Below, in pieces: positions 12,405 to 28,207 of a stretch of 63,568 nt of DNA (position 1 is the first letter of the stretch; each line of letters starts with the position of its first letter). The position numbers and the translations under genes are program-made. The notes below the pieces were generated by a model. That model saw only the letters and a program-made list of their open reading frames with translations, was not told where the DNA came from and made no database searches. The stretch is from Thermoanaerobaculia bacterium (GTDB lineage Bacteria; Acidobacteriota; Thermoanaerobaculia; Gp7-AA8), in assembly GCA_046594105.1 (NCBI GenBank), contig JBKJQB010000024.1, forward strand, positions 1 to 63,568. Direction: 5' to 3'.

Positions 12405-12433
12405 TTGACGTAAACTGTTGCAAGCCATGTAGT
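12405..12433 (+). promoter_or_regulatory. Sigma70-type promoter candidate
   Basis: TTGACG-N17-TGTAGT. Confidence 0.5.
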
Positions 12434-12452
12434 TGAAGGGCCACGCGTCGAG

Positions 12453-12468
12453 TGGCACCTGCGTCGCA
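12453..12468 (+). promoter_or_regulatory. Sigma54 -24/-12 promoter candidate
   Basis: TGGCAC-CTGCG-TCGCA: GG-N10-GC spacing is intact, one mismatch to TGGCAC-N5-TTGCW. The predicted start site would fall close to the ATG. Confidence 0.45.
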
Positions 12469-12483
12469 AAAGGGAGCATCCTC

Positions 12484-13059
12484 ATGAACAAGCAAGATGG
12501 TCGTTCGGAAGGCGGATACAGCATCGCAGAGTTGTTGACGGTGGTGGCCATCGTCGGCGTTCTCTCGCTGGTGACCGTGCCCTCCTTCATCGGTTACTTC
12601 AATTCCAACAAGGTGAAGGCGGCCATGCGCACCTTCAGCTCTGACCTGCGCACCGCGCGGTCCACCGCGATCAGCCAGAGCCGGGAAGTCAAACTCACGT
12701 ACAAGACCGGGACGAAACAACGGGCCTACGACCTGTATCTGGGCGACCGGGCCTTCGGGACCGTTCCCTCGGCGAACTGGACCCGCCTGACCGGACCAGG
12801 TTCCAACCCTCCAAAGCCCAGCAAGATCCTCGACGATGTCGTCTATTTCCCAGCGGACAGCGTGACCACGCCGCAGACGTTCACCGACCTGGATACCACT
12901 GCGGACGGCTGGCTGGACGTCATCTTCTTTCCTGATGGACATGCCCAGCTTCCGACGGCGGCAACCTCCGGGACCATCACCATCAAGACGGACATGAACG
13001 TGCCGAAGTCTTCCTACGCAATCACCATCAGCCCCAGTGGACGCGTTCTGGCGCAATGA
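12484..13059 (+). CDS. Minor pilin, FimT/FimU/GspH-like
   Basis: Class III signal GG|YSIAELLTVVAIVGVL; LRTARSTAISQ and ITISPSGRV are FimT-like motifs. Confidence 0.85.
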   Translation: MNKQDGRSEGGYSIAELLTVVAIVGVLSLVTVPSFIGYFNSNKVKAAMRTFSSDLRTARSTAISQSREVKLTYKTGTKQRAYDLYLGDRAFGTVPSANWTRLTGPGSNPPKPSKILDDVVYFPADSVTTPQTFTDLDTTADGWLDVIFFPDGHAQLPTAATSGTITIKTDMNVPKSSYAITISPSGRVLAQ

Positions 13060-13679
13060 GCCGGAGCAGCGAGGAAATGATGAAGAGACGAGAAGCGAGC
13101 GGCTACAGCCTGATCGAAGTCCTGATCGCCATCGCCATCACCAGCGTGGTGCTGCTGACGGTGATCACCCTGTTCTACATGGGGCGGCGCAACGTCTACA
13201 GCGGCAAGCAGCAGACCATCGCCGTCGCCTCGGGCACCCAGATTCTGGAAGACCTCTCCACCATGACAGCGCAGGATCTGGGATCCAACTTCAACATCAA
13301 TGACGGCACGGCGCTCAGCACGGTCACGCTGCAGGGAGTGGCGGATGGCGTGAACGGGCAGCTGGCCTTCACCAACAGCGTCGGCCGTGACTCCAGCAAC
13401 TGTACCGTCGCTTCGACGACCCCGTACGCCATCACCTGCACGGACGATCCGAACGGGTACATGACCAAATGGCTGCGATTGTTGTCGCCCGCCGGAGACC
13501 GGAACGAAGTGCTCACCAACCCGGTGGTCGGCCTCGTCTTGCGGCCCCGCAATCCCACCGATAACGCCAAGGCATTCAGCACCGCCCGGTTCATCCGGGC
13601 ACGCGTCTATGTCTCGTGGGAAGAAGCACAGAATCGTCGCCGCTACGCGTTCTTCGACACCACGAAAGTGAACCGGTAG
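13056..13679 (+). CDS. Minor pilin, PilV-like
   Basis: SG|YSLIEVLIAIAI prepilin motif; second position in the operon. Confidence 0.8.
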   Translation: MSRSSEEMMKRREASGYSLIEVLIAIAITSVVLLTVITLFYMGRRNVYSGKQQTIAVASGTQILEDLSTMTAQDLGSNFNINDGTALSTVTLQGVADGVNGQLAFTNSVGRDSSNCTVASTTPYAITCTDDPNGYMTKWLRLLSPAGDRNEVLTNPVVGLVLRPRNPTDNAKAFSTARFIRARVYVSWEEAQNRRRYAFFDTTKVNR

Positions 13680-13691
13680 CCAGGAGCAGCC

Positions 13692-16600
13692 ATGAAACCA
13701 ACCGCGCGTCACCAGCAACGGGGATTCACACTCGCAGAGATCCTGGTCACCACGGCGATCTTCGCCGTCATCATGATCGCCGCCCTTTCGGTCTACGACC
13801 AGAGCAACCGTGTGTTCAAGTCGGGAACCGAGTCGGCGGACATGCAGCAGAGCACACGGATCGGCTTCGACAAGCTGGTGGCCGATCTGCGCATGGCCGG
13901 CTTCGACTACAACCGCGGCGGCACTCCCACGAAGACCGGGGAATTTCCGCAACAGGACGAGCAGATCGAATACGCCGGCCCCACCGCGGTGGCCTTCCGG
14001 GGGAATTTCAATTACAACACCGCCTCGTCAAACGGAAACGGGCTGGAACCAACCTTCACTCCGAAGGATCCCACCACCAACGCGGCGATCTTCCCCTTCG
14101 TCACCACCAGCGATGACGAGATCGTCGCCTACGTCACCCGTTCCGCGGACAACACCCAGAACACCGGGTCCATCTCGTTCTACGTGGACGCCGGGAAACC
14201 CCGCAATGTGTATCCCGGCGGTGCCGCGGAAGCGCTGATCACCATCAGCAGCGCTCTCTGCGCCACCTGCGGCGTCGACACCAGCAATGCCAACCCTCCT
14301 TACACGCTGTATCGAATGACCCTGAACGACTACAAGAACCGGCAACCGGGAACGCCGATCGCCGAGAACATCCGCAGCCTCAACTTCTTCTACTACACCG
14401 ACGCGAATGGCCAGACGGTGCTCAAGAACAACGATGCCACGGACATCACCGCGACCCGGAATGCCGATGGCTCCACCGTCCCGGCCACGGCCTCGGTCAC
14501 CATTTTGAATTCCGACGGCACCACGTCGACCACCACCTCGAACACCGGGGCCATCGGAGGGGCGGGACAATACGACCCGGCCAGCCCCGGCACAGCGGCG
14601 AATTTCGTCGACCGGCAGCAGCGCACCACCATCCAGTCGGTGCGCGTGAATGTGATCGGCATGAATGCCAACCCGGAGCCGGGCTATACCCAACGCACCG
14701 AGTCCATCGCCCGCATCAAAAACTACCGGCAATACGCGCTGTCCGCCTTGATCGTGCCCCGGAACCTCGGACTGACCGGGTTCCCCGAGCCCAGCAACTC
14801 CGCGCCTTCGGTTCCGGTGATCACCGGCATCTGCACCGCGCACTGCGCCGCACCCGTCCTCTGCTGGGCCGCCCCGACCGGGGGCGGACCGGTCGATCAG
14901 TACCGCATCGAATGGGACAGCGTGGCCACAGGCTCCTTCCCCAACTCGCTCATCGTGACCGATCCCACCGTCACCACCGCGATCATCCGCGACAACGGCA
15001 TCATGGATCCGTCGATCACCTGGTATTACCGCATCTTCGCGCAGAACGACAACGGTTCGAGCCCGCCGCAAAACCCCACGCCGGCCCAGCCGAAGAACTC
15101 CACCCGGCCCCTGCCGCCCGCGCCCGGCACCATCACCACAAGCAACGCCGTGAATTACGCGGTGACCGTGGGATGGGTGGCCCCCTCCAACAACGACCCT
15201 GCCAAGGCCACCATGAACTGCACCGGGGCCGGCTGCAGCACCGATCCCAGCACCATCCCATCGCAGGAGATCATCAAGTACCGCGTGTATCGCGGGCTCA
15301 CTGCGACGTTTGATCCCACCAACCCTGCCGAGAGCTCCAAAGTCCTGGCCGCTACCACCGGTGTCCAGCCGACATCCGCAGGCCCCGGGTCGCCGATCTC
15401 CTGGGCAGATTCGCCGAGCACCTCGGCCTTCCCCTCTGGAACCTGCGTGGATTACTACTACCGGGTGCAGGCGGTGGATCGCTGCTTCTCCAGCAACAAC
15501 TACAACACCAGCGGCGACCTGAACGATTCGATCAGCACGATTTCACCGCCTCTCGGTTCGAATGCGATTCTGGGCCGGACGAACGACCTCTCCACGGCCA
15601 AAGCGCTGGGGCCGGTGAATCTGAAAGTGAGCAGCGCCACCTCTGCCTGCCCAGCACCCGCATCGCTCAACTGCAAGGTAGATTTGAGCTGGTCCAAGGT
15701 GACCGCCGACAATGCCGGCAACGCCATCGGCGTCGATAAGTACCGCCTGACCCGTTACCGAAAGAAGTATCTCGATCCTGGATTCGTACTCGACACCACG
15801 TTCAATCTCACCGGCTCGCTGGACATGCCTGGTTACTCGCAGAGCGGCACTGGCCTGGTTGGAAAAACCGACACGACCGGCCCCGCCATCGACACGGCAG
15901 ACGGCGCTCCCTGGTACTACCAATATACGGTCACCGCGAACGACTGCCGGCTGGGTCTTCCCTCCAATACGGCGGACTTCCCGACGTTGTGCGCGGGCAC
16001 TCCCTCCACAGTCAGCCAGGTCGGCGCTTCGGGCGGAGGCTCCGGTGACACCGTGGCCCAGGCCTGGGTCATGAATAGTGGGGACCTTCTCCGCATCACC
16101 GCTGCTGCGGGGTTGACCATCGCGAACGTCAAATACGATGTGTTCGCCTATCCCTCCGGTACGGTTGCGGACTCGGTGACCACAACAGCCTCACCGACCT
16201 TCCCCTACGTCTGGTCCGACCGCACCGACAACCAGATCTACCAGATCCGGATCGCCATCACCGACTCCACTGGCTGCACCGAGGTCCATGTGAAGTATGT
16301 GAAGGACGAGCAGGCTGCGCCCTGCGCGTTCGGCAACGTGGCCCTCACGGCATTCACCAGCACAACCTCCGGCCCGACCCGGTCGCTTTTCGAAACCTAC
16401 ACGGTGACGAACGTAGCCACGGAGGCACTGACCTTCAGCGCGAAGCCGATCAAAGTCACATGGGCTATCCCGGCCGGCTTCGCCGCCAGCCACAGCGACA
16501 TGACTCTCGATGACATCACCTACTCACTGGGTGGCTCCGACGGAGGCGCCAATTCGGGCCCCGGAACGGTCACCCGGTCAATCCCGGCCGCAGCGATCCT

Positions 16601-16796
16601 CTCTGCGAGTTCGTCGATGACGGTCCGGCTGCACTGGACTTTCAGAAAGAACGACGACAACCCCACAACCCTGGCCGGTCAACCGCTCTCGAAGATCTGC
16701 CTCGACTACACCATCCTCAGTGAGCCAGGCATCACCAAACACTGCAACCTGGTCGGGCAGAGCGCCAGCACCACCAACCCGACTTCGTGCGATTAG
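13692..16796 (+). CDS. Giant PilW-like minor pilin with fibronectin-III-like and Cys-rich beta domains (1034 aa)
   Basis: RG|FTLAEILVTT, PilW-like QQSTRIGFDKLVADLRMAG, then three FN3-like signatures (W..P...Y.(I/V)...YYY.V.A) and many Cys pairs. Confidence 0.8.
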   Translation: MKPTARHQQRGFTLAEILVTTAIFAVIMIAALSVYDQSNRVFKSGTESADMQQSTRIGFDKLVADLRMAGFDYNRGGTPTKTGEFPQQDEQIEYAGPTAVAFRGNFNYNTASSNGNGLEPTFTPKDPTTNAAIFPFVTTSDDEIVAYVTRSADNTQNTGSISFYVDAGKPRNVYPGGAAEALITISSALCATCGVDTSNANPPYTLYRMTLNDYKNRQPGTPIAENIRSLNFFYYTDANGQTVLKNNDATDITATRNADGSTVPATASVTILNSDGTTSTTTSNTGAIGGAGQYDPASPGTAANFVDRQQRTTIQSVRVNVIGMNANPEPGYTQRTESIARIKNYRQYALSALIVPRNLGLTGFPEPSNSAPSVPVITGICTAHCAAPVLCWAAPTGGGPVDQYRIEWDSVATGSFPNSLIVTDPTVTTAIIRDNGIMDPSITWYYRIFAQNDNGSSPPQNPTPAQPKNSTRPLPPAPGTITTSNAVNYAVTVGWVAPSNNDPAKATMNCTGAGCSTDPSTIPSQEIIKYRVYRGLTATFDPTNPAESSKVLAATTGVQPTSAGPGSPISWADSPSTSAFPSGTCVDYYYRVQAVDRCFSSNNYNTSGDLNDSISTISPPLGSNAILGRTNDLSTAKALGPVNLKVSSATSACPAPASLNCKVDLSWSKVTADNAGNAIGVDKYRLTRYRKKYLDPGFVLDTTFNLTGSLDMPGYSQSGTGLVGKTDTTGPAIDTADGAPWYYQYTVTANDCRLGLPSNTADFPTLCAGTPSTVSQVGASGGGSGDTVAQAWVMNSGDLLRITAAAGLTIANVKYDVFAYPSGTVADSVTTTASPTFPYVWSDRTDNQIYQIRIAITDSTGCTEVHVKYVKDEQAAPCAFGNVALTAFTSTTSGPTRSLFETYTVTNVATEALTFSAKPIKVTWAIPAGFAASHSDMTLDDITYSLGGSDGGANSGPGTVTRSIPAAAILSASSSMTVRLHWTFRKNDDNPTTLAGQPLSKICLDYTILSEPGITKHCNLVGQSASTTNPTSCD

Positions 16797-16808
16797 GAGT
16801 AGACGACA

Positions 16809-19382
16809 ATGAAACGCACATCACGTAGAAAACGACTCCTTCGCAACGACCGAGGCTCCGCGCTGCTGGTGAGCCTCATGGTCATCGTCGGGCTGTCGTT
16901 GCTCGGCCTCGGCTTCGTGGCCATCTCGGAGACGGAGACCGCCATCGCCAAGAACCAGCTGTCGGTCGTGCAGACTCAGGCTGTGGCGGAGGCGGGAGCC
17001 AAGCTCGTCGTGGAATGGTTCCAGGATCCAGTCTGGGCCGAGCTAAATGCAGGATTGCCCTTGAATGACGGGTCGGTGAACGCCAGTCTGGCAGCCATCA
17101 AAACCAACCGGGTGATCGCCGGGACCAACCCCATCAATGGCGTGTACAAGCCAGCCGCCAACATCCGGCTTCTGGAGAAACCATACCGGCCGAAACCGGA
17201 GAATCGATTCTATGGAGACGAGAACTCGGCCGATCTGATCATCAACCGGACCACCGACATCACCACCATCGACACCATCAACAACGTGTTGCTCGGAACG
17301 ACTGCGGAAGAACGCCGCAGTGGCGAGGTCACCGAGGTCAAGATTTACGCGCCGCCCATCGTGGGTGGAACGCTGCTCACCGACGGCACCACCACGAACG
17401 CGGACGGAACACCGCGGCGTTTCTGGGGCGGCACGGCAGAACGATTCGGCGTGGCCACCATCAAGGTCACCGCCACCATGTTCCGCGACCGCACGTTGAC
17501 CGGCGCGGCTCGCATGGCAGCATCGAACATCATGGCCTCCCATGCCGTGCGGCTGGTGGTCGGAGAGATTCCCCTCCCCATCCCCGGCGGCCCCATCCAG
17601 AGCAACACCTCGATTTCGTTCGGCGGCAACTTCGTCGTGCACTGGGGCAATGAGACGTCGACGACCGACCTCACCAACAAGCGGAATCCGAGCTCGCTCC
17701 CCTGGGCCAACGCCTACGAGCGCCCGCACTTCGAGCACGGCTACGAGCCGGGCCAAAGCATCTCCCAGATTCAGCTCACCTCCGGCGGATCGGGCTACCC
17801 GGGAGGAACGACCGTCAATATCGTCGGGGGGGGGGGCTCATTGGCGACCGCCACTGCCACTGTGACCGGCGGGGTCATCACCGCGGTCACTCTGACCGCG
17901 CGCGGCACGGGCTACTCCACCTCATCGCAGCCAACCATCACCTTCACGGGGGTCGGGGGCTCGGGTGCCTCCGCCACTCCCATCGTCGGAGCGGAAGTGT
18001 GGCCCACCACGCAGGCGTCCTTCGAGCAGGAAAACTATCTCAACGAAGTTCTCAACAAGACCTTCGAGGATCCCTGGTTCGGTTCGCGAGCCGTGCGCGA
18101 CAACTTCATCGATGGGGCCACAGCGTCGGGAGTTTTTCCGCAGTGCTACCCCTACTCGGCGTTATCGAACGAAACCAGTCCTCCCGGTTCCTACTTCTTT
18201 CAGTGGCAGGCAGCCAACACCTATCCATTGTTGAAAAAGGTCGTGTTCCCGACGATCAAATACGACTTCTGGAAGAGGATCGCCTCGCAGGGCCGCGGCT
18301 ACAAGGGGATCTACTACTTCAGCTTCGACAAGGCGGCCGGCAGCGGCTACAAGAAGGGTGGAACCGGTACCACTAAGCCGATGGCGTACTGGGCCAATTC
18401 TCTCAAGACCGGGCCGGGCGGGCGCCTCGGCCCCGGCGTGTACTTTTTCGACACCGTCGATGCGATCAACCCGCAGAATCTGATCGGCGGCGCACGCACT
18501 GCCCAGTTCACCCCCGCGGAGTCGTGGAACTCCTCCGATTACGGCTCTTCCTTCCTGATGGAGGGGTTCCTCTACGCGAACAACTCATCCTTCGGCACGC
18601 AGGGACAGGGCAGCTCCGCGGTAACGATCCAGGCAAACTTCCCCGGTGAGCCGTATCGCGATGTCGGTTGCCCCCTGTTTGACCTGGCCTCCAACGACTG
18701 GAACCGTACCTGTGCAGGAGCCATTTGTACGAAGGGCGCCGGCGATGGAATCTTCACCTCCGATGACCTGAATGGAAACCAGAGATTCGATGTCGTCACC
18801 ATGCCTGCCCCGGCCTGGCTGTCGAATGACCCCGGCCCCATTGCTCATGCTGCCGGAAGCACGTACATCGTCAAGACCTGGAAGTCGCCCTTGCAGGCCA
18901 CTGCCGACTACGGCGCACCCTGCACCGTTCCGGCCGTTGGATACAACGGGACGAATCCCGGCCCCAACGACTGCTCGGAGCCGCACGAGCCGTACCTCAA
19001 TCTGATCTACACAGGCACGGCCACCGATCCGCTCACCGTCGGATGGCAACCGTCGAACGGCTCCCAGACGTTTCTGAAGAAGAACACCGGCATCACCTGC
19101 ACCGCTGCGTCCGCGCAGACGGACTGCACCTCGAACGCTTACGACCTCGATGGCTCGCAGGTGCCCATCGACGTCATCCTCGACGGCATCTTCTACAACG
19201 AGGGCGGCTACGACACGCAAGGCAATACCGCCTACTACGGCTCGCTGCTCATCAATGGTGTGGTCACCGGAACCGGTACTCCCGACATCTGGTTCGACGA
19301 GAAACTCATCAAGGGCACCTGGGCTCCCCCGAACATGCCCCGGGTCATCGTCTACAACGAACAAACGGACGAAGAACAGTAA
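16809..19382 (+). CDS. Giant PilX-like minor pilin (857 aa)
   Basis: RG|SALLVSLMVIVGLSLLG lacks Glu5 (PilX/GspK hallmark); AQAVAEAG-type PilX N-domain; long Gly/Thr/Asn-rich extracellular region. Confidence 0.8.
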   Translation: MKRTSRRKRLLRNDRGSALLVSLMVIVGLSLLGLGFVAISETETAIAKNQLSVVQTQAVAEAGAKLVVEWFQDPVWAELNAGLPLNDGSVNASLAAIKTNRVIAGTNPINGVYKPAANIRLLEKPYRPKPENRFYGDENSADLIINRTTDITTIDTINNVLLGTTAEERRSGEVTEVKIYAPPIVGGTLLTDGTTTNADGTPRRFWGGTAERFGVATIKVTATMFRDRTLTGAARMAASNIMASHAVRLVVGEIPLPIPGGPIQSNTSISFGGNFVVHWGNETSTTDLTNKRNPSSLPWANAYERPHFEHGYEPGQSISQIQLTSGGSGYPGGTTVNIVGGGGSLATATATVTGGVITAVTLTARGTGYSTSSQPTITFTGVGGSGASATPIVGAEVWPTTQASFEQENYLNEVLNKTFEDPWFGSRAVRDNFIDGATASGVFPQCYPYSALSNETSPPGSYFFQWQAANTYPLLKKVVFPTIKYDFWKRIASQGRGYKGIYYFSFDKAAGSGYKKGGTGTTKPMAYWANSLKTGPGGRLGPGVYFFDTVDAINPQNLIGGARTAQFTPAESWNSSDYGSSFLMEGFLYANNSSFGTQGQGSSAVTIQANFPGEPYRDVGCPLFDLASNDWNRTCAGAICTKGAGDGIFTSDDLNGNQRFDVVTMPAPAWLSNDPGPIAHAAGSTYIVKTWKSPLQATADYGAPCTVPAVGYNGTNPGPNDCSEPHEPYLNLIYTGTATDPLTVGWQPSNGSQTFLKKNTGITCTAASAQTDCTSNAYDLDGSQVPIDVILDGIFYNEGGYDTQGNTAYYGSLLINGVVTGTGTPDIWFDEKLIKGTWAPPNMPRVIVYNEQTDEEQ
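17826..17836 (+). repeat. G11 homopolymer inside the pilX-like CDS
   Basis: GTC GGG GGG GGG GGC = V-G-G-G-G; 11 consecutive G. Confidence 0.95.
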
Positions 19383-19429: not shown

Positions 19430-19722
19430 GGGGGTTCCAGCCCATGGTCAGCGCGTGCACCGCTCAGCAAAGAGACCCACAGGGGTTCCCGACGCAGTCG
19501 GCGAAACGCCGTGAGTCTGCCGGCGCAAGCCGGCAATAGGTCCGTAGACCCCGGCTTCAGCCGGGGGCGGTCGAGCTCCCGACCCTGCGGCGCTGCGGAA
19601 TCCGCCCCCTTCACCCACCGTTGTAAACTACTCCCCTCCCGCATGAGTCCCGGCGGGAAATCCCTCGGCAATCGGAACGTTTGGCATCATCGGCCGTCGT
19701 AAAGGCAGGCCACAGAAGGACA

Positions 19723-20931
19723 ATGCCCGAATTCATCATCAGAGCCGGAACGCCCGATGGGCAGATCGTGGAGCGCCACGTCCAGGCTCTGAATTCGCGT
19801 GCCGCCCAGGAAGAATTGACCCGCCAGGGCATGCATGTCTTCGAGGCCAAGCGCGGGACCATGCACCTGCGCGACCTCCTGCCGCGCGGCGGCAAGATCA
19901 TCTCCACCGAACGATTCCTCGTCTTCAATCAGGAACTGCTGGCCCTGGTCCGGGCCGGACTGCCTATCCTGCAGTCCTTCGACATCATGCTGGAGCGGCA
20001 GAAGAACCTGCGCTTCCGCGACGTACTCATCGACATCCGGGACAAGCTGAAGTCCGGCATCTCGCTGTCCGACGCCTTCGCCTCTTACGGCGACCAGTTT
20101 CCTGCCATCTACTCGACCTCCATCCGGGCGGGAGAGCGATCCGGCGACCTGGAGGGCGTGCTCAAGCGTTTTCTTCGTTACCAGAAGATCATCGTCAACC
20201 TGCGGAAGCGGGTCATCGGCGCAATGATCTACCCCGCAGTGCTGATCGTTCTGTCGGCGGCCATGGTGTTCATCATGCTGACCCGGGTCATCCCGAAGTT
20301 CGCGGAGTTCTACGCCGGGTTCGGTGCCGAGTTGCCCTGGTTCACCACTTTGATGATCAAGGTGGCCAACCTCCTGAATCAGAACCTGATTATTCTCGTC
20401 GTGGTCTCCGTCGTCGGATTCGTCTTTTTCCGGCGCTGGGCATCGACCACCGGTCGCCTGCTTTACGACCGTTTCAAACTGGGAATCCCCCTGGTCGGGG
20501 GGATCCTTCACCGCTTCGCCATTCTGCAGTTCACCCAGTCGCTGGGGACTCTGCTCTCGGGCGGCACTCCCATGGTCCCGGCCATCGAGATCGCCTCGCA
20601 GTCGGTCACCAATCAGCTGGTGGCCACCCGGATCTACAGCATCATCCAGAACGTCCGGAACGGCGAGCCACTGTGGCGCTCGCTGGAGAGCACCAACGCC
20701 GTGAGCGACCTCGCCGTCGAAATGATCAAGGTCGGAGAGTCCACCGGAGCCTTGACGGAAATGCTGTCCAACGTCAGCGAGTTCTACGACGAGGAGATCG
20801 AGGCGCGGCTCACTCGTCTGGTGGCGGCCATTGAGCCGCTCATCCTGGTCTTCATGGGCATCGTGATCGCCACGCTGCTCTACGCCTTCTATCTCCCTCT
20901 GTTCCAGCTTTCGTCAGTGACACAGCAATGA
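19723..20931 (+). CDS. pilC: Type II secretion F / PilC inner-membrane platform protein
   Basis: Two T2SSF domains (AGERSGDL..., VGESTGALTEML...EP). ATG 19723 with GAAGGA RBS. Confidence 0.93.
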   Translation: MPEFIIRAGTPDGQIVERHVQALNSRAAQEELTRQGMHVFEAKRGTMHLRDLLPRGGKIISTERFLVFNQELLALVRAGLPILQSFDIMLERQKNLRFRDVLIDIRDKLKSGISLSDAFASYGDQFPAIYSTSIRAGERSGDLEGVLKRFLRYQKIIVNLRKRVIGAMIYPAVLIVLSAAMVFIMLTRVIPKFAEFYAGFGAELPWFTTLMIKVANLLNQNLIILVVVSVVGFVFFRRWASTTGRLLYDRFKLGIPLVGGILHRFAILQFTQSLGTLLSGGTPMVPAIEIASQSVTNQLVATRIYSIIQNVRNGEPLWRSLESTNAVSDLAVEMIKVGESTGALTEMLSNVSEFYDEEIEARLTRLVAAIEPLILVFMGIVIATLLYAFYLPLFQLSSVTQQ

Positions 20932-20966: not shown

Positions 20967-22589
<1,623 letters not shown>

Positions 22590-24331: not shown

Positions 24332-24960
24332 TCTGGCGCGAGAAACGAATCTCCCTGGCCATCCTCGCCGTTCTTCTGCTGGCGAATGTCCTCTTCTTCT
24401 TTACCTACCGGGTGCAGTACCAGAACCGGCTGCAGGATCTCGAGGGCCGCCTGCGCGCCAGTCAGGACCGCCTGGCCCAGGCCCAGCGCATGCGCACCAC
24501 GGCACAACAACAGCTTGATGGTTATCGCAAAGTGCAGCAGGACCTCCAGGCTCTCTACAACCAGCGCTGGTCGACGCAGGCCGCGCGGTTCACATCGTTG
24601 ATCATCGAGGTCAAGCGGCTGGTGGTGGCCAGCCAGCTGGTGTTGCCCCGAAGCTCCTCCTTCAGCCGCACCGAGGCGCGCACCACCAAAGAAACGGGCG
24701 CCATCGACACCGCGGTCGTCGGAATCAACTTCACCGTCCAGGGCTCTTACGAGCAGGTGCGCAGGCTGATCAATCTGCTGGAGCTTTCCAACCAGTTTGT
24801 GATCATCGACGGCATCAGCCTCGGGAGCGGGAACGACAAGATCCTGACCCTCAATCTCCGTCTGAAGACGCTGTTCCGCGAACCAACGCAGCAGAATGCA
24901 CCGCCGGCATTCGGATTCAGTGAGCCGGCCAGAACTCCCGCTCGGAATCAGGGACTGTGA
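24328..24960 (+). CDS. pilO: PilO/GspM-like alignment protein
   Basis: TM helix, coiled coil, V.GSYEQVRRLINLLE ferredoxin-like motif. Confidence 0.8.
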   Translation: MIWREKRISLAILAVLLLANVLFFFTYRVQYQNRLQDLEGRLRASQDRLAQAQRMRTTAQQQLDGYRKVQQDLQALYNQRWSTQAARFTSLIIEVKRLVVASQLVLPRSSSFSRTEARTTKETGAIDTAVVGINFTVQGSYEQVRRLINLLELSNQFVIIDGISLGSGNDKILTLNLRLKTLFREPTQQNAPPAFGFSEPARTPARNQGL

Positions 24961-25631
24961 TGGATTGGATGAGCTGGAAAACCTGGGGCATCATCGGGCT
25001 GGCGCTTCTGGCCGTCTTCGCCATCTATTCGTTCGCCGCCCCATCGGCCCCGGCGGAGTCCGCCATCGTTTCGTCAGAGACGGTGGGCCGGACTCCGGCG
25101 CGCTCGCCGCGCGTGACGGCCGCGCCGGCGCGTGGCGTCGGCGTCCTGCACAGCGAGTGGCTGGATAAAGTCACCGGCAGCTACCGGAGCGAGCGGAATC
25201 TGTTCTCCTACGTGGAGCCGCCCCCTCCCCCGCCTCCTCCACCGCCGAAGCCGCCCCCGCCTCCGCCCGACAAAGACAAGGACGGCATTCCCGACTTCAA
25301 GGACAACTGCCCTGACAAGGCCAACCCCGATCAGGCCGATATCGACGAGAACGGCATCGGCGACGCCTGTCAGGCCGGTGAGATCATCCGCAAGGTTCAC
25401 CTGCCGCCTCCGCCGCAGCCGCCGCCGTTCAGCTTCAAGTACATCGGGACCTTCGGAACGCCGTCGAGCCCGATTGCCACCTTCTCGGGCAACGGTGAGA
25501 TCGTCAACGTGCGTGTGGGGGAGACCTTCGCCGGGAAGTTCGTTCTGCGCAGCATCGGCATCGAGTCGGTGGAGATCGGATTCGTCGGCTTTCCCTCGGA
25601 CATCAAGACGCGCGTTCCTGTCGGAGAGTGA
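24957..25631 (+). CDS. PilP/GspC-like protein with a thrombospondin type-3 Ca-binding repeat
   Basis: N-terminal TM helix, RNLF, Pro-rich linkers, DKDKDGIPDFKDNCPDKANPDQADIDENGIGDAC, C-terminal HR/PilP-like domain (FKYIG...VRVGE). Confidence 0.7.
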   Translation: MMDWMSWKTWGIIGLALLAVFAIYSFAAPSAPAESAIVSSETVGRTPARSPRVTAAPARGVGVLHSEWLDKVTGSYRSERNLFSYVEPPPPPPPPPPKPPPPPPDKDKDGIPDFKDNCPDKANPDQADIDENGIGDACQAGEIIRKVHLPPPPQPPPFSFKYIGTFGTPSSPIATFSGNGEIVNVRVGETFAGKFVLRSIGIESVEIGFVGFPSDIKTRVPVGE

Positions 25632-25720
25632 CGTTTGGACCGTTTGGACCGTCAGAAGCAACGTGTGAGAGAGTGGCCCGGAACGGACACCCGCGCACAG
25701 GACTCAGGACTGAAAACGAA

Positions 25721-28207
25721 ATGAATCGACTGAAGATCGCAATCGCCGCACTGGCCGTCTCCCTTCCCCTGCTCTCGTGCGCCAGCTACAACGCGTACGA
25801 GAAGGCGAGAACCGCTGAGAAGCTGAAGAACTGGGACGACGCTGTCATCGAGTATCAGAAGGCGCTGGAAGTCGATCCGCAGAACCTTCGCTACCGGGTC
25901 TCCCTGCAACGGGCCAAGCTGGAGGCTTCCCGCGTTCACTTCGAGAAGGGCAAGACCCTGCGCACCGCGGCCATGCAGTCGGTCGGTCCGGACCAGCTCC
26001 GCCTGGCCCAGCTGGCATCCGCCGAGCTCGAGCTCACGGTGAAGCTGGATCCCTCCAACCAGTTCGCGGCCGTGGAACGCGACAAGGCGGTGGGAACGAT
26101 CAACGATCTGACCGTGCGCAACGATGCCACCCTCTCCATCGACGACATCAAGAAAAAAGCGCGCAACAACGTTTCCAAAGCACAGCCCCCCCAACTCAAC
26201 CCCGCCTCCGATCAGCCCATCTCTTTGAGCTTTCCGCGGGAGACTCCGATCAAGGAGATCTACAAGGCGCTGGGAAACGCATTCGGCATCAACATCCTCT
26301 TCGATCAGGCCATCAAGGACAGCGACCGGCTCTCCATCGAGCTCAAGGACGTCACCGCGCAGGAAGCTCTCGAGCGGGTCATGCAGGCGGTCAATCACTT
26401 CTACAAAGTGCTGGACTCCCACTCCATCATCGTGGTTCCGGACAACCCGCAGGCGCGCCGTGACTACGAGGATCTGGTCATCCGCACGTTCTATCTCTCC
26501 AACGGCGACGCCGAGCAGGTCACCAACGTGGTGCGGACCATGATCGAGGCGCGCAACGTGTTCCCGCTCAAGGCCCTCAACGCCATCACTATCCGGGACA
26601 CCGCCGACAAGGTGCGCATCGCCGAGAAGATCATTGAGGCGAACGACAAAGCGAAAGCGGAAGTGGTCGTCGACGTGGAACTGGTGCAGCTCGATCTCAA
26701 CCGCGGGCGGGACATGGGATTCGCCCTCAGCGCGCAGAGCGGCTCCATCCAACCGCAGGGCTCGGTCACAGACACCGCCGGCAAAACCACCGGCGGCACC
26801 ATCAGCTCCATCCTTCTGAGCCAGCTCAAGACCCTCGGCCACAGCGGGAACTACTCCATCACCCTGCCCACGGCCAGCTACGCGCTGCTGAAATCGATCA
26901 GCAACGTCTCCCTGCTGGCCAACCCCGAGTTGCGGATTTCCGAGGGGGAGAAGGCCACGCTGCACATCGGCAACCGCATCCCCGTTCCGGTCACCACGTT
27001 CACCACGGCGGTGCAGCAGAACAACTTCGGCAGCCTTCCGGCCACGTCGTACCAATACCAGGACATCGGCATCAAGGTGGCCATCGAACCGCGCGTGCAT
27101 CACAACCGCGAGGTCACGTTGAAGCTGACAGTAGAAGTCTCCAGCCAGGGTCCGGACGCCCCGGCACCGGCAGGTCAGATCGCCCAGCCGACCTTCATCA
27201 CACGCACCATCGAGTCGACCATCCGCCTGAAGGATGGCGAGACCAACTTCCTGGCGGGCCTCATCCGGGAAGACCAGACCAACTCCGATCAGAAGACGCC
27301 ATTCCTGGGCGACCTGCCGTTCATCGGCCGGCTGTTCACCCAGAACCGCCAGCTGTCGCTCAAAACCGACCTCATTCTGACCATGACTCCGCACATCATC
27401 CGGATCCCCGACATCACCGAGGACGATCTGGCGCCGATGTGGGTCGGAACGACCAACAATCTGACCTTCCGCGGGATGTCGCCACGGCTGGAGTCGCGAT
27501 CGGCAACCGATCCGTTCGTCAATCGCTCCTCGGCCAGCAGTCAGTTCGGCACCGACGCAGCGACCGGCCTGCCGCTCGCTGACGGAGAACCGGGCAATGT
27601 GGTCCGTCCTCAAGGCACCGGACCGATCGCACCGGGGACTGCGCCCAACGATAGGTTCCGCAATTCGCCTCCCCCACCACCGCCTGTCCGGCCTCCATCG
27701 AACAGCAGCCTGGTCTGGCCGAAGCCCGTGGGCAGCGAACCGGACGGAACTCTTGCGGCGGCGACGTCGAGATCCGCTTCGTCCGATTCCGATGGCCTCT
27801 CGCCGCGCATCTCGCCGCAACCGGTGCATCTGTCCCTTCGCAGCGGGGAAGAGAAACTGTGGACTGTGGTGGGCATGGACCTCGACGGTCTGAGCACGAA
27901 TCGAATCGTGCTCCACTACGACCCGCGCACGCTCGACGTTTCCGAGGTGTTGTTCGGGCCGGCACTGGCCATCGACATCAAGGTTCCTCCGGTGGTGGTC
28001 ATCGACCGCAACGGCGGAACGATCAAAATCACTTCCTCGAACGGTCAACCCCTGTTGTTCAAAGGCGGGGGAGACATCGCCATGCTGCGGGTGCACGGTG
28101 GCATCGGCGGAGAGACGTTCCTGGTGCTGGAGAATCCTGATTTGAAGAACGGTCACGGAGACACCGTGGCGTCGGCCGTCTCCGGAGGACGCGCGAAGGT
28201 CGAATGA
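25721..28207 (+). CDS. Secretin (GspD/PilQ family) lipoprotein with N-terminal TPRs and a C-terminal cohesin-like domain
   Basis: Lipobox LLSC, TPR-like helices, N domains, secretin core (LLANPELRISEGEKA...LGDLPFIGRLF...LILTMTPHII). Start reassigned to ATG 25721. Confidence 0.9.
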   Translation: MNRLKIAIAALAVSLPLLSCASYNAYEKARTAEKLKNWDDAVIEYQKALEVDPQNLRYRVSLQRAKLEASRVHFEKGKTLRTAAMQSVGPDQLRLAQLASAELELTVKLDPSNQFAAVERDKAVGTINDLTVRNDATLSIDDIKKKARNNVSKAQPPQLNPASDQPISLSFPRETPIKEIYKALGNAFGINILFDQAIKDSDRLSIELKDVTAQEALERVMQAVNHFYKVLDSHSIIVVPDNPQARRDYEDLVIRTFYLSNGDAEQVTNVVRTMIEARNVFPLKALNAITIRDTADKVRIAEKIIEANDKAKAEVVVDVELVQLDLNRGRDMGFALSAQSGSIQPQGSVTDTAGKTTGGTISSILLSQLKTLGHSGNYSITLPTASYALLKSISNVSLLANPELRISEGEKATLHIGNRIPVPVTTFTTAVQQNNFGSLPATSYQYQDIGIKVAIEPRVHHNREVTLKLTVEVSSQGPDAPAPAGQIAQPTFITRTIESTIRLKDGETNFLAGLIREDQTNSDQKTPFLGDLPFIGRLFTQNRQLSLKTDLILTMTPHIIRIPDITEDDLAPMWVGTTNNLTFRGMSPRLESRSATDPFVNRSSASSQFGTDAATGLPLADGEPGNVVRPQGTGPIAPGTAPNDRFRNSPPPPPPVRPPSNSSLVWPKPVGSEPDGTLAAATSRSASSDSDGLSPRISPQPVHLSLRSGEEKLWTVVGMDLDGLSTNRIVLHYDPRTLDVSEVLFGPALAIDIKVPPVVVIDRNGGTIKITSSNGQPLLFKGGGDIAMLRVHGGIGGETFLVLENPDLKNGHGDTVASAVSGGRAKVE

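What the first reader, a model, noticed from the sequence alone, without database searches (positions are those of the whole stretch)
17826..17836. G11 homopolymer in the giant pilX: candidate phase-variation switch
Seen: 11 consecutive G encode Gly-Gly-Gly-Gly, while the rest of the gene mostly uses GGC/GGA; I saw no longer run in the window. Loss of one G stops translation at 17863-17865; gain of one G stops it at 18374-18376. Both keep the ~340-aa pilin N-part and drop most or all of the native C-terminal ~515 aa. Established: Neisseria pilC (tip adhesin) phase-varies through a poly-G tract. Inference: slipped-strand switching between long and short tip pilin.
Basis: partly seen in the sequence, partly recalled or inferred. 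Interest (0 to 1): 0.62.

Follow-up and report, generated by a model that had tools for sequence, protein, structure and literature searches.

The report
Lone poly-G run in pilus gene
A run of eleven G's really does sit in frame inside a large pilus-tip-type gene of an uncultured soil acidobacterium and must be prone to frameshifting. None of about 70 related genes has such a run and reads could not be checked, so it looks more like a recent codon accident than a proven on/off switch.

Summary
G11 lies at 17826-17836 and codes Gly340-343 of an 857-aa PilX-like minor pilin (16809-19382, +). The gene sits in a type IV pilus cluster of a Thermoanaerobaculia (Acidobacteriota) MAG.

The tract is the only coding G/C run of 9 or more in the 4.29-Mb genome. 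Codon shuffling predicts about 45 such runs, so the genome purges them and this one stands out.

The evidence for an evolved switch is weak:
- The tetraglycine is a conserved beta-turn of an inserted Gly-rich module. The closest relatives (75-82% identity) spell it with mixed codons.
- About 70 homologous genes have no G/C run longer than 8.
- The tract is mid-gene (codon 340 of 857).
- MutS and MutL are present.
- The genome's only other long tract (C12, in front of an ECF sigma gene) is also unique to this lineage.
- Naive chance allows about one such G-run per genome.

Verdict: a real, intrinsically slippage-prone site, most likely incidental. An adaptive phase switch remains possible (about 25%). 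This scan has noted better-supported poly-G pilin switches on other DNA.

The parts
17826..17836 (+). G11 homopolymer, codons GGG GGG GGG GG(C) = Gly340-343
   Evidence: Only coding G/C run of 9 or more in the genome.
16809..19382 (+). PilX-like large minor pilin gene (857 aa, P0001)
   Evidence: 367 homologues, some named 'pilus assembly PilX N-terminal domain-containing protein'. Homologues P0109, P0117 and P0120 pass the Pfam PilX_N cut-off. P0001 itself scores only 6.8 bits.
16860..17579 (+). Pilin-like N-domain (residues 18-257): long N-terminal helix plus beta-sheet. Retained by both frameshift products.
   Evidence: AlphaFold2 model: helix 18-72, strands up to 253, pLDDT about 80-90.
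17751..18014 (+). Inserted Gly-rich all-beta module (residues 315-402) with an internal two-fold repeat GGSGY...GGGGxGA. The tract encodes the turn between strands 335-339 and 344-353.
   Evidence: Absent from the orthologues of about 40% identity, whose matches split into 1-314 and 403-857. Similar units occur in giant ORFs of relatives. Alignment; model pLDDT about 80.
18015..19379 (+). Conserved C-terminal region (residues 403-857), lost in G10 and G12 variants
   Evidence: Dense invariant columns, including Cys residues, across 25 homologues. Frameshift simulation.
17863..17865 (+). Stop codon reached after loss of one G (351-aa product)
18374..18376 (+). Stop codon reached after gain of one G (522-aa product, about 180 aa of it out of frame)
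12433..13059 (+). GspH/FimT-like minor pilin gene, first of the minor-pilin operon
   Evidence: Pfam GspH 1.2e-09; NCBIfam minor-pilin hits.
13056..13679 (+). PilV-like minor pilin gene
   Evidence: N_methyl; TIGR02523 PilV 6.6e-07, below its cut-off.
13692..16796 (+). 1034-aa prepilin-type protein in the PilW position, directly upstream of the pilX-like gene
   Evidence: N_methyl 5.4e-07 and a weak fn3 hit; TIGR02532.
19681..20931 (+). PilC/T2SS-F platform protein gene
   Evidence: PF00482 6.1e-52.
20967..22589 (+). PilB-type assembly ATPase gene
   Evidence: PF00437 5.9e-130 plus MshEN.
25628..28207 (+). Secretin (PilQ-like) gene
   Evidence: PF00263 8.7e-40 and Secretin_N.

Best explanation
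The G11 is a genuine, lineage-specific homopolymer. It arose when the third positions of three codons of a conserved tetraglycine beta-turn all became G. The turn lies in a Gly-rich beta-module inserted between the pilin domain and the conserved C-terminal domain of a PilX-like minor pilin.

It is an incidental mutational hotspot, probably young, and not a maintained switch. Like any G/C run of this length it should slip by +/-1 during replication far more often than ordinary sequence. That would throw off variants making 351-aa or 522-aa proteins that keep the pilin domain but lack the C-terminal domain.

Shown: the tract, the frame, the consequences of slippage, its uniqueness in the genome, and its absence from relatives. 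Inferred: that it slips at a raised rate in this organism, that the truncated forms are loss-of-function, and that no selection maintains the tract.
For: - The tract is real and in frame, with the same four Gly as homologues P0003 and P0005 and no indel.
- The GGGG motif is conserved at protein level in the closest relatives but is written with mixed codons.
- The 25 homologous loci and the 44 named Thermoanaerobaculia loci have no G/C run above 8.
- Codon shuffling gives about 1.3 coding-strand G-runs of 11 or more per genome. The gene-specific GGG frequency of 0.13 gives P = 0.002 per motif, over about 100 stretches of four or more Gly. A single accident is therefore plausible.
- Relatives carry sporadic G10 tracts in housekeeping genes, for example inside a class A PBP.
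- The genome's only other long tract (C12) is also absent from 19 orthologous promoters and lies outside the conserved promoter-like motif.
- The loop around the motif varies in length among homologues, so it is weakly constrained.
- MutS and MutL are present.
- The tract sits at 40% of the gene. Phase-variable genomes enrich SSRs near N-termini, and coding sequences in general suppress them mid-protein (PMC3315296).
Against: - The genome removes G/C runs of 9 or more very efficiently (1 observed against about 45 expected), so survival of an 11-mer needs explaining.
- It lies in a surface-pilus gene, the classic target of contingency loci.
- The assembled state is ON and the C-terminal domain is highly conserved, which would also fit a maintained reversible switch.
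- No same-species or same-genus sequence was available, so absence from relatives of 82% identity or less says little about a young species-specific switch.
Confidence: 0.58

Rival explanations
1. Evolved contingency locus. Slipped-strand mispairing at G11 reversibly switches the pilus between a full-length PilX-like tip protein with its C-terminal (possibly adhesive) domain and a short pilin-only form or no functional protein. This would give mixed populations, as with Neisseria pilC.
For: - It is the sole coding G/C run of 9 or more in a genome depleted about 45-fold for them.
- It lies in a minor-pilin gene of a type IV pilus cluster.
- +/-1 changes cleanly truncate the protein after an intact pilin domain.
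- No PilY1-family hit was found in the genome, so adhesion could reside in the giant minor pilins. This is weak, because the control genomes did not ring either.
- Homopolymer phase variation of type IV pilus genes is established in gonococci (PMC5610331).
Against: - The tract is not recurrent in about 70 homologues, including the nearest at 75-82% identity.
- It is mid-gene.
- There is only one such coding tract, so no contingency-gene repertoire.
- Mismatch repair genes are present.
- There are no allele data.
- Chance expectation is about 1 per genome under codon shuffling.
Confidence: 0.25
2. Sequencing or assembly artefact: the true tract is shorter, interrupted or of another length, and the G11 in the MAG consensus is wrong.
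For: This is a draft MAG of 370 contigs. Related MAGs carry many poly-G/C artefacts, but at contig ends. Reads could not be inspected.
Against: - The tract is internal to a 63.6-kb contig.
- Both flanks are collinear with orthologues residue for residue.
- The Gly count equals that of P0003 and P0005, and the 857-aa frame is intact.
- A length error would normally break the frame.
Confidence: 0.08
3. Expression-level recoding. RNA polymerase slippage or ribosomal frameshifting on the G-run produces a fixed mixture of long and short PilX isoforms from one allele.
For: Only the presence of a long homopolymer, with a short -1-frame exit (351 aa) just after an intact pilin domain.
Against: From general knowledge, transcriptional slippage is documented mainly for A/T runs. 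There is no conservation of the tract, no downstream stimulatory structure was looked for or seen, and there are no RNA data.
Confidence: 0.04

Closest known systems
Neisseria gonorrhoeae/meningitidis pilC1/pilC2 poly-G translational phase variation (Jonsson et al. 1991, recalled from memory; pilC phase variation and homopolymer stretches in T4P genes in PMC5610331)
   Same: A G homopolymer inside the ORF of a type IV pilus accessory or tip component, where +/-1 slippage abolishes the full-length protein.
   Different: - The Neisseria tract lies in the signal-peptide region at the 5' end, varies among strains and has measured switching. Here it is at codon 340 of 857, is unique to one MAG and has no variation data.
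- The protein is not a PilC/PilY1 homologue (no PF05567 hit).
- The host is a free-living soil acidobacterium.
Homopolymeric G/C-tract contingency loci of Campylobacter jejuni and Helicobacter pylori (general knowledge)
   Same: G/C runs of about 8-13 in coding regions of surface-structure genes. The run-length distribution has a gap, with outlier long tracts.
   Different: Those genomes carry tens of such tracts and lack MutS/MutL-type mismatch repair. This genome has one coding and one intergenic tract and encodes MutS and MutL.
Incidental coding SSRs under purifying selection (Lin & Kussell 2012, PMC3315296)
   Same: The genome-wide avoidance of mutable repeats relative to synonymous codon shuffles is reproduced here. 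The tract sits on a Gly-rich structural motif.
   Different: An 11-mer is far beyond the usual tail in this genome, where nothing of length 9 or 10 exists.
PilX / GspK-type minor pilins (Pfam PilX_N, PF14341)
   Same: An N-terminal hydrophobic helix followed by a beta-sheet. The gene is last in a fimT-pilV-pilW-pilX-like operon next to pilC, pilB and a secretin. Homologues pass the PilX_N model.
   Different: The protein is 857 aa, with an inserted Gly-rich module and a C-terminal region of about 455 aa (residues 403-857). Nothing in the PDB matches the protein by sequence or fold. P0001 itself is below the Pfam cut-off.

Membership tests
SSR (homopolymeric-tract) phase-variable / contingency locus | Tract long enough to be hypermutable (G/C of about 8-9 or more) in an ORF or promoter | tested here: met
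   G11 at 17826-17836 in frame. Indel variability rises steeply with SSR length, shown over 6-10 bp (PMC3315296).
SSR (homopolymeric-tract) phase-variable / contingency locus | +/-1 repeat-unit change switches expression of the full-length product off or on | tested here: met
   In silico, G10 -> 351 aa and G12 -> 522 aa; G8, G11 and G14 are in frame.
SSR (homopolymeric-tract) phase-variable / contingency locus | Tract length polymorphic within populations or between close strains | not testable with these tools
The 90% cluster of P0001 has one member. No encoding contigs are on record. No homologue of 90% identity or more to the N-part exists. The metagenome pattern scan gave only unrelated hits.
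SSR (homopolymeric-tract) phase-variable / contingency locus | Tract recurs at the locus, or in the gene family, in related genomes | tested here: not met
   The nearest relatives use mixed Gly codons. No G/C run above 8 occurs in the 25 plus 44 homologous loci.
SSR (homopolymeric-tract) phase-variable / contingency locus | Genome carries an excess or repertoire of such tracts, typically 5'-proximal in surface genes | tested here: not met
   There are 1 coding and 1 intergenic tract of 9 or more. The genome is about 45-fold depleted against the codon shuffle. The tract is at 40% of the ORF.
PilX_N-domain minor pilin (PF14341) | Match to the PilX_N model above the gathering score | tested here: inconclusive
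   P0001 scores 6.8 bits, E = 9.3, over residues 15-63. Homologues P0109, P0117 and P0120 (44-47% identical) score 26.6-29 bits against a cut-off of 25.5 at the same position.
PilX_N-domain minor pilin (PF14341) | Pilin-type fold and position in a minor-pilin operon of a T4P/T2SS-like cluster | tested here: met
   The model has helix 18-72 plus a beta-sheet. Neighbours are GspH-like, PilV-like, an N_methyl giant, T2SSF, T2SSE and a secretin.
PilC/PilY1 tip adhesin family (PF05567) | PilY1/PilC C-terminal beta-propeller domain | tested here: not met
   P0001 has no Pfam hit. There is no PF05567 match in the genome, but the control genomes were also silent. No PDB sequence or fold match was found.

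The most novel reading that the evidence does not exclude
The G11 is a young, species-specific contingency locus in a free-living soil Acidobacteriota bacterium. It stochastically toggles the large C-terminal (adhesive?) domain of a PilX-like tip pilin in a pilus that appears to lack PilY1. This would extend SSR phase variation of type IV pili to a phylum and lifestyle where it has not been described.
Probability: 0.2. Interest if true: 0.5.

Novelty: new member of a known kind. Interest (0 to 1): 0.25.

Why it matters
If the tract really switched, soil Acidobacteriota would be shown to use the same bet-hedging trick as mucosal pathogens to vary a pilus-tip protein. That would point to the C-terminal domain of this giant PilX-like protein as the part under fluctuating selection, for example from phage receptors, surface attachment or predation.

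As it stands, the finding is a single unreplicated tract. Its main value is as a flagged site where deep reads of the source sample could settle the question cheaply. It also shows that this genome, and relatives in its family searched for such tracts, strongly purge long G/C runs from coding DNA.

Tried and rejected
2. Same-species alleles:
   - The 90% cluster of P0001 has one member.
   - Exact look-ups of P0001 and the neighbouring PilB found nothing.
   - A search with the 343-aa N-part, aimed at truncated OFF alleles, found nothing above 76% identity.
3. An exact-pattern scan of metagenome contigs with the upstream flank plus G8 returned six hits. All were unrelated to the gene by tblastn.
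4. Recurrence in relatives: none.
5. Survey of tracts of 10 or more in 60 family genomes. Many of the tracts sampled lie at contig ends and look like artefacts. Internal ones are scattered over intergenic DNA and unrelated genes such as a class A PBP and the start of RodZ, with no pilus bias seen.
6. Whether the genome's other long tract (C12 before an ECF sigma gene) is a conserved switch: it is not conserved.
7. Identity of the C-terminal domain: there is no Pfam, NCBIfam or PDB sequence hit and no significant fold hit. The best fold match is Thermus ComZ at E = 1.5.
8. Chimeric poly-G join: rejected, because both flanks are collinear with orthologues.

Full report
**Observation.** The window reads atcgtcGGGGGGGGGGGctcatt, with exactly eleven G at 17826-17836. 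The run lies in frame in the 857-aa ORF 16809-19382 (+) as GGG GGG GGG GGC = Gly340-343. It is the longest homopolymer in the window; the next longest is 7. Outside the tract the gene uses GGC 50, GGA 21, GGG 12 and GGT 10. G8 and G14 remain in frame.

**What the gene is.** The window is a whole 63.6-kb contig of a 4.29-Mb MAG in 370 contigs, about 95% complete. Homologues come from Thermoanaerobaculia/Acidobacteriota MAGs, and some are named 'pilus assembly PilX N-terminal domain-containing protein'.
- P0001 itself is far below the Pfam PilX_N cut-off (6.8 bits).
- Homologues that are 44-47% identical pass it at the same N-terminal position.
- The gene is the last of four pilin-type genes: GspH/FimT-like, PilV-like, a 1034-aa N_methyl protein, then this one.
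- Downstream lie the T2SS-F platform protein, the PilB ATPase and, further on, a secretin.

An AlphaFold2 model (mean pLDDT 64) gives four regions:
- a confident pilin-like domain, with helix 18-72 plus a sheet up to about residue 257;
- a disordered linker;
- a confident small all-beta module at 318-393;
- a moderately confident C-terminal region.

The four glycines form the turn between strands 335-339 and 344-353. The module (residues 315-402) is an insertion. Orthologues of about 40% identity match 1-314 and 403-857 as separate pieces, and similar units occur in giant ORFs of relatives. The C-terminal region holds many invariant residues across 25 homologues. Nothing in Pfam or NCBIfam, or in the PDB by sequence or fold, matches the protein beyond the weak PilX_N hit.

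**Is the run more than chance?** Two nulls give different answers, and both matter.
- Composition alone does not exclude it. Dinucleotide shuffles of the window give 0.10 matches, with 5 of 100 shuffles reaching at least 1. Within-gene synonymous codon shuffling of about 3100 ORFs gives 5.1 G/C runs of 11 or more per genome, and 1.27 for G on the coding strand.
- The real genome almost never lets such runs stand. Runs of 9 or more are 1 observed against 44.6 expected, and runs of 8 or more are 27 against 164.
- Genome-wide there are 31 G/C runs of 8, none of 9 or 10, this 11-mer and one intergenic 12-mer.
- Of 101 stretches of four or more Gly, only this one has a G-run above 8.
- Near-complete relatives also carry only a handful of internal tracts of 10 or more, so the depletion is not an artefact of assembly gaps.

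The tract is therefore an outlier against strong purifying selection on long runs.

**Comparative evidence.** The tetraglycine is a protein-level feature. The closest homologues (75-82% identity) read IVGGGGAGATATATV at the same place, but encode it as ggt ggc ggc ggg, ggt ggc ggt ggg or ggc gga ggt. More distant homologues shorten or alter this loop, so it is weakly constrained. The 25 homologous loci from relatives and metagenomes and the 44 named Thermoanaerobaculia loci contain no G/C run above 8. The G11 is thus unique to this lineage. The single same-genus genome held is 62% complete and lacks the gene.

**Other context.**
- MutS (two hits) and MutL are present.
- The genome's only other long tract is a C12 on another contig. 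It lies between an EamA transporter gene and an ECF sigma gene.
- That C12 sits just upstream of a TGTAAAC...CGTCC motif that is conserved before the orthologous sigma genes, but the tract itself is absent from all 19 orthologous regions.
- In relatives, many of the tracts of 10 or more that were sampled lie at contig ends and look like artefacts. Internal ones are scattered, and include a G10 inside a class A penicillin-binding protein.
- Nothing suggests that this family uses homopolymer switches as a habit.

**What could not be done.** The decisive test is counting tract-length alleles in reads. Substitutes also failed:
- P0001's 90% cluster has one member.
- Exact look-ups of P0001 and PilB found no other contig.
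- A search with the N-terminal 343 aa, aimed at truncated alleles, found nothing above 76% identity.
- A flank-plus-G8 pattern scan of metagenome contigs returned only unrelated DNA.

**Interpretation.** I think the most likely reading (about 0.58) is an incidental, evolutionarily young homopolymer. Three third-position changes to G on a conserved GGGG turn, in a weakly constrained loop of a non-essential surface gene, produced a run that has not yet been purged. It will nevertheless be a frameshift hotspot. Indel variability of SSRs rises by orders of magnitude between 6 and 10 bp across prokaryotes (PMC3315296). The population should therefore contain truncated variants that keep the pilin domain and lack the conserved C-terminal domain.

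An evolved contingency locus remains possible (about 0.25). The points for it are:
- the outlier status of the tract in this genome;
- the pilus target;
- the ON state of the assembled allele;
- the established precedent of homopolymer phase variation in gonococcal type IV pilus genes, including pilC (PMC5610331).

Against it are the lack of recurrence, the mid-gene position and the single-locus repertoire. Phase-variable genomes enrich SSRs near N-termini, while coding sequences generally suppress them mid-protein (PMC3315296).

An assembly error is unlikely (about 0.08). The frame is intact and the Gly count matches the homologues. Expression-level slippage producing two isoforms is a remote possibility (about 0.04).

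**Comparison with known systems.** It would work like Neisseria pilC or Campylobacter-type poly-G contingency loci. It fails two membership criteria that could be tested, recurrence and repertoire or position, and the key one, length polymorphism, is untested. The protein is not a PilC/PilY1 homologue. Earlier notes of this scan describe better-supported poly-G switches in pilin genes of other uncultured bacteria. Those are on other DNA and were not tested here.

**Verdict.** The finding is of low-to-moderate interest until reads are examined.

Noticed in passing
G000 contig C48:14864-14875 (locus L027 3365-3376), outside the window: This C12 is the genome's only other G/C run of 9 or more. 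It lies in the divergent intergenic region between an EamA transporter gene and an ECF sigma factor gene. It ends about 14 bp upstream of a TGTAAAC...CGTCC(A) motif that is conserved before the orthologous sigma genes of 19 relatives, and which looks like an ECF-type autoregulated promoter. The tract itself is absent from all of them.
   Followed up: partly
Whole genome G000: Coding regions are strongly depleted of long G/C homopolymers relative to within-gene synonymous codon shuffles. Runs of 8 or more are 27 against 164, and runs of 9 or more are 1 against 45. The GGG-GGG dicodon is not itself avoided (159 observed, 158 expected).
   Followed up: yes
window 17751-18014 (residues 315-402 of P0001): The Gly-rich two-fold-repeat beta module is an insertion relative to the orthologues of about 40% identity. 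Similar units occur many times in giant ORFs of relatives (open frames of 3685, 2660 and 6461 aa) and once on contig C96 of this genome. It has no Pfam match even at E = 10.
   Followed up: partly
Loci L036, L037, L045, L048, L052, L060 and others (relatives' genomes): Many MAGs of this family carry poly-G/C runs of 11-33 bases exactly at contig ends. These are probably sequencing or assembly artefacts. They inflate naive counts of long tracts.
   Followed up: partly
L046 1501-1510 (genome G006): A G10 tract lies inside the coding sequence of a class A penicillin-binding protein (Transgly + Transpeptidase), on a GGG peptide. This is an example of a long tract in a housekeeping gene of a relative.
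   Followed up: partly
L024 4447-4740: In the metagenome contig that carries the 81%-identical homologue P0003, a Y1_Tnp (IS200/IS605-type) transposase gene lies downstream of the pilX-like gene, where the window has pilC.
   Followed up: no
window 24957-25631: A 224-aa ORF between the PilO-like gene and the secretin gene carries a thrombospondin type 3 (calcium-binding) repeat, which is unusual for that position in a pilus cluster.
   Followed up: no
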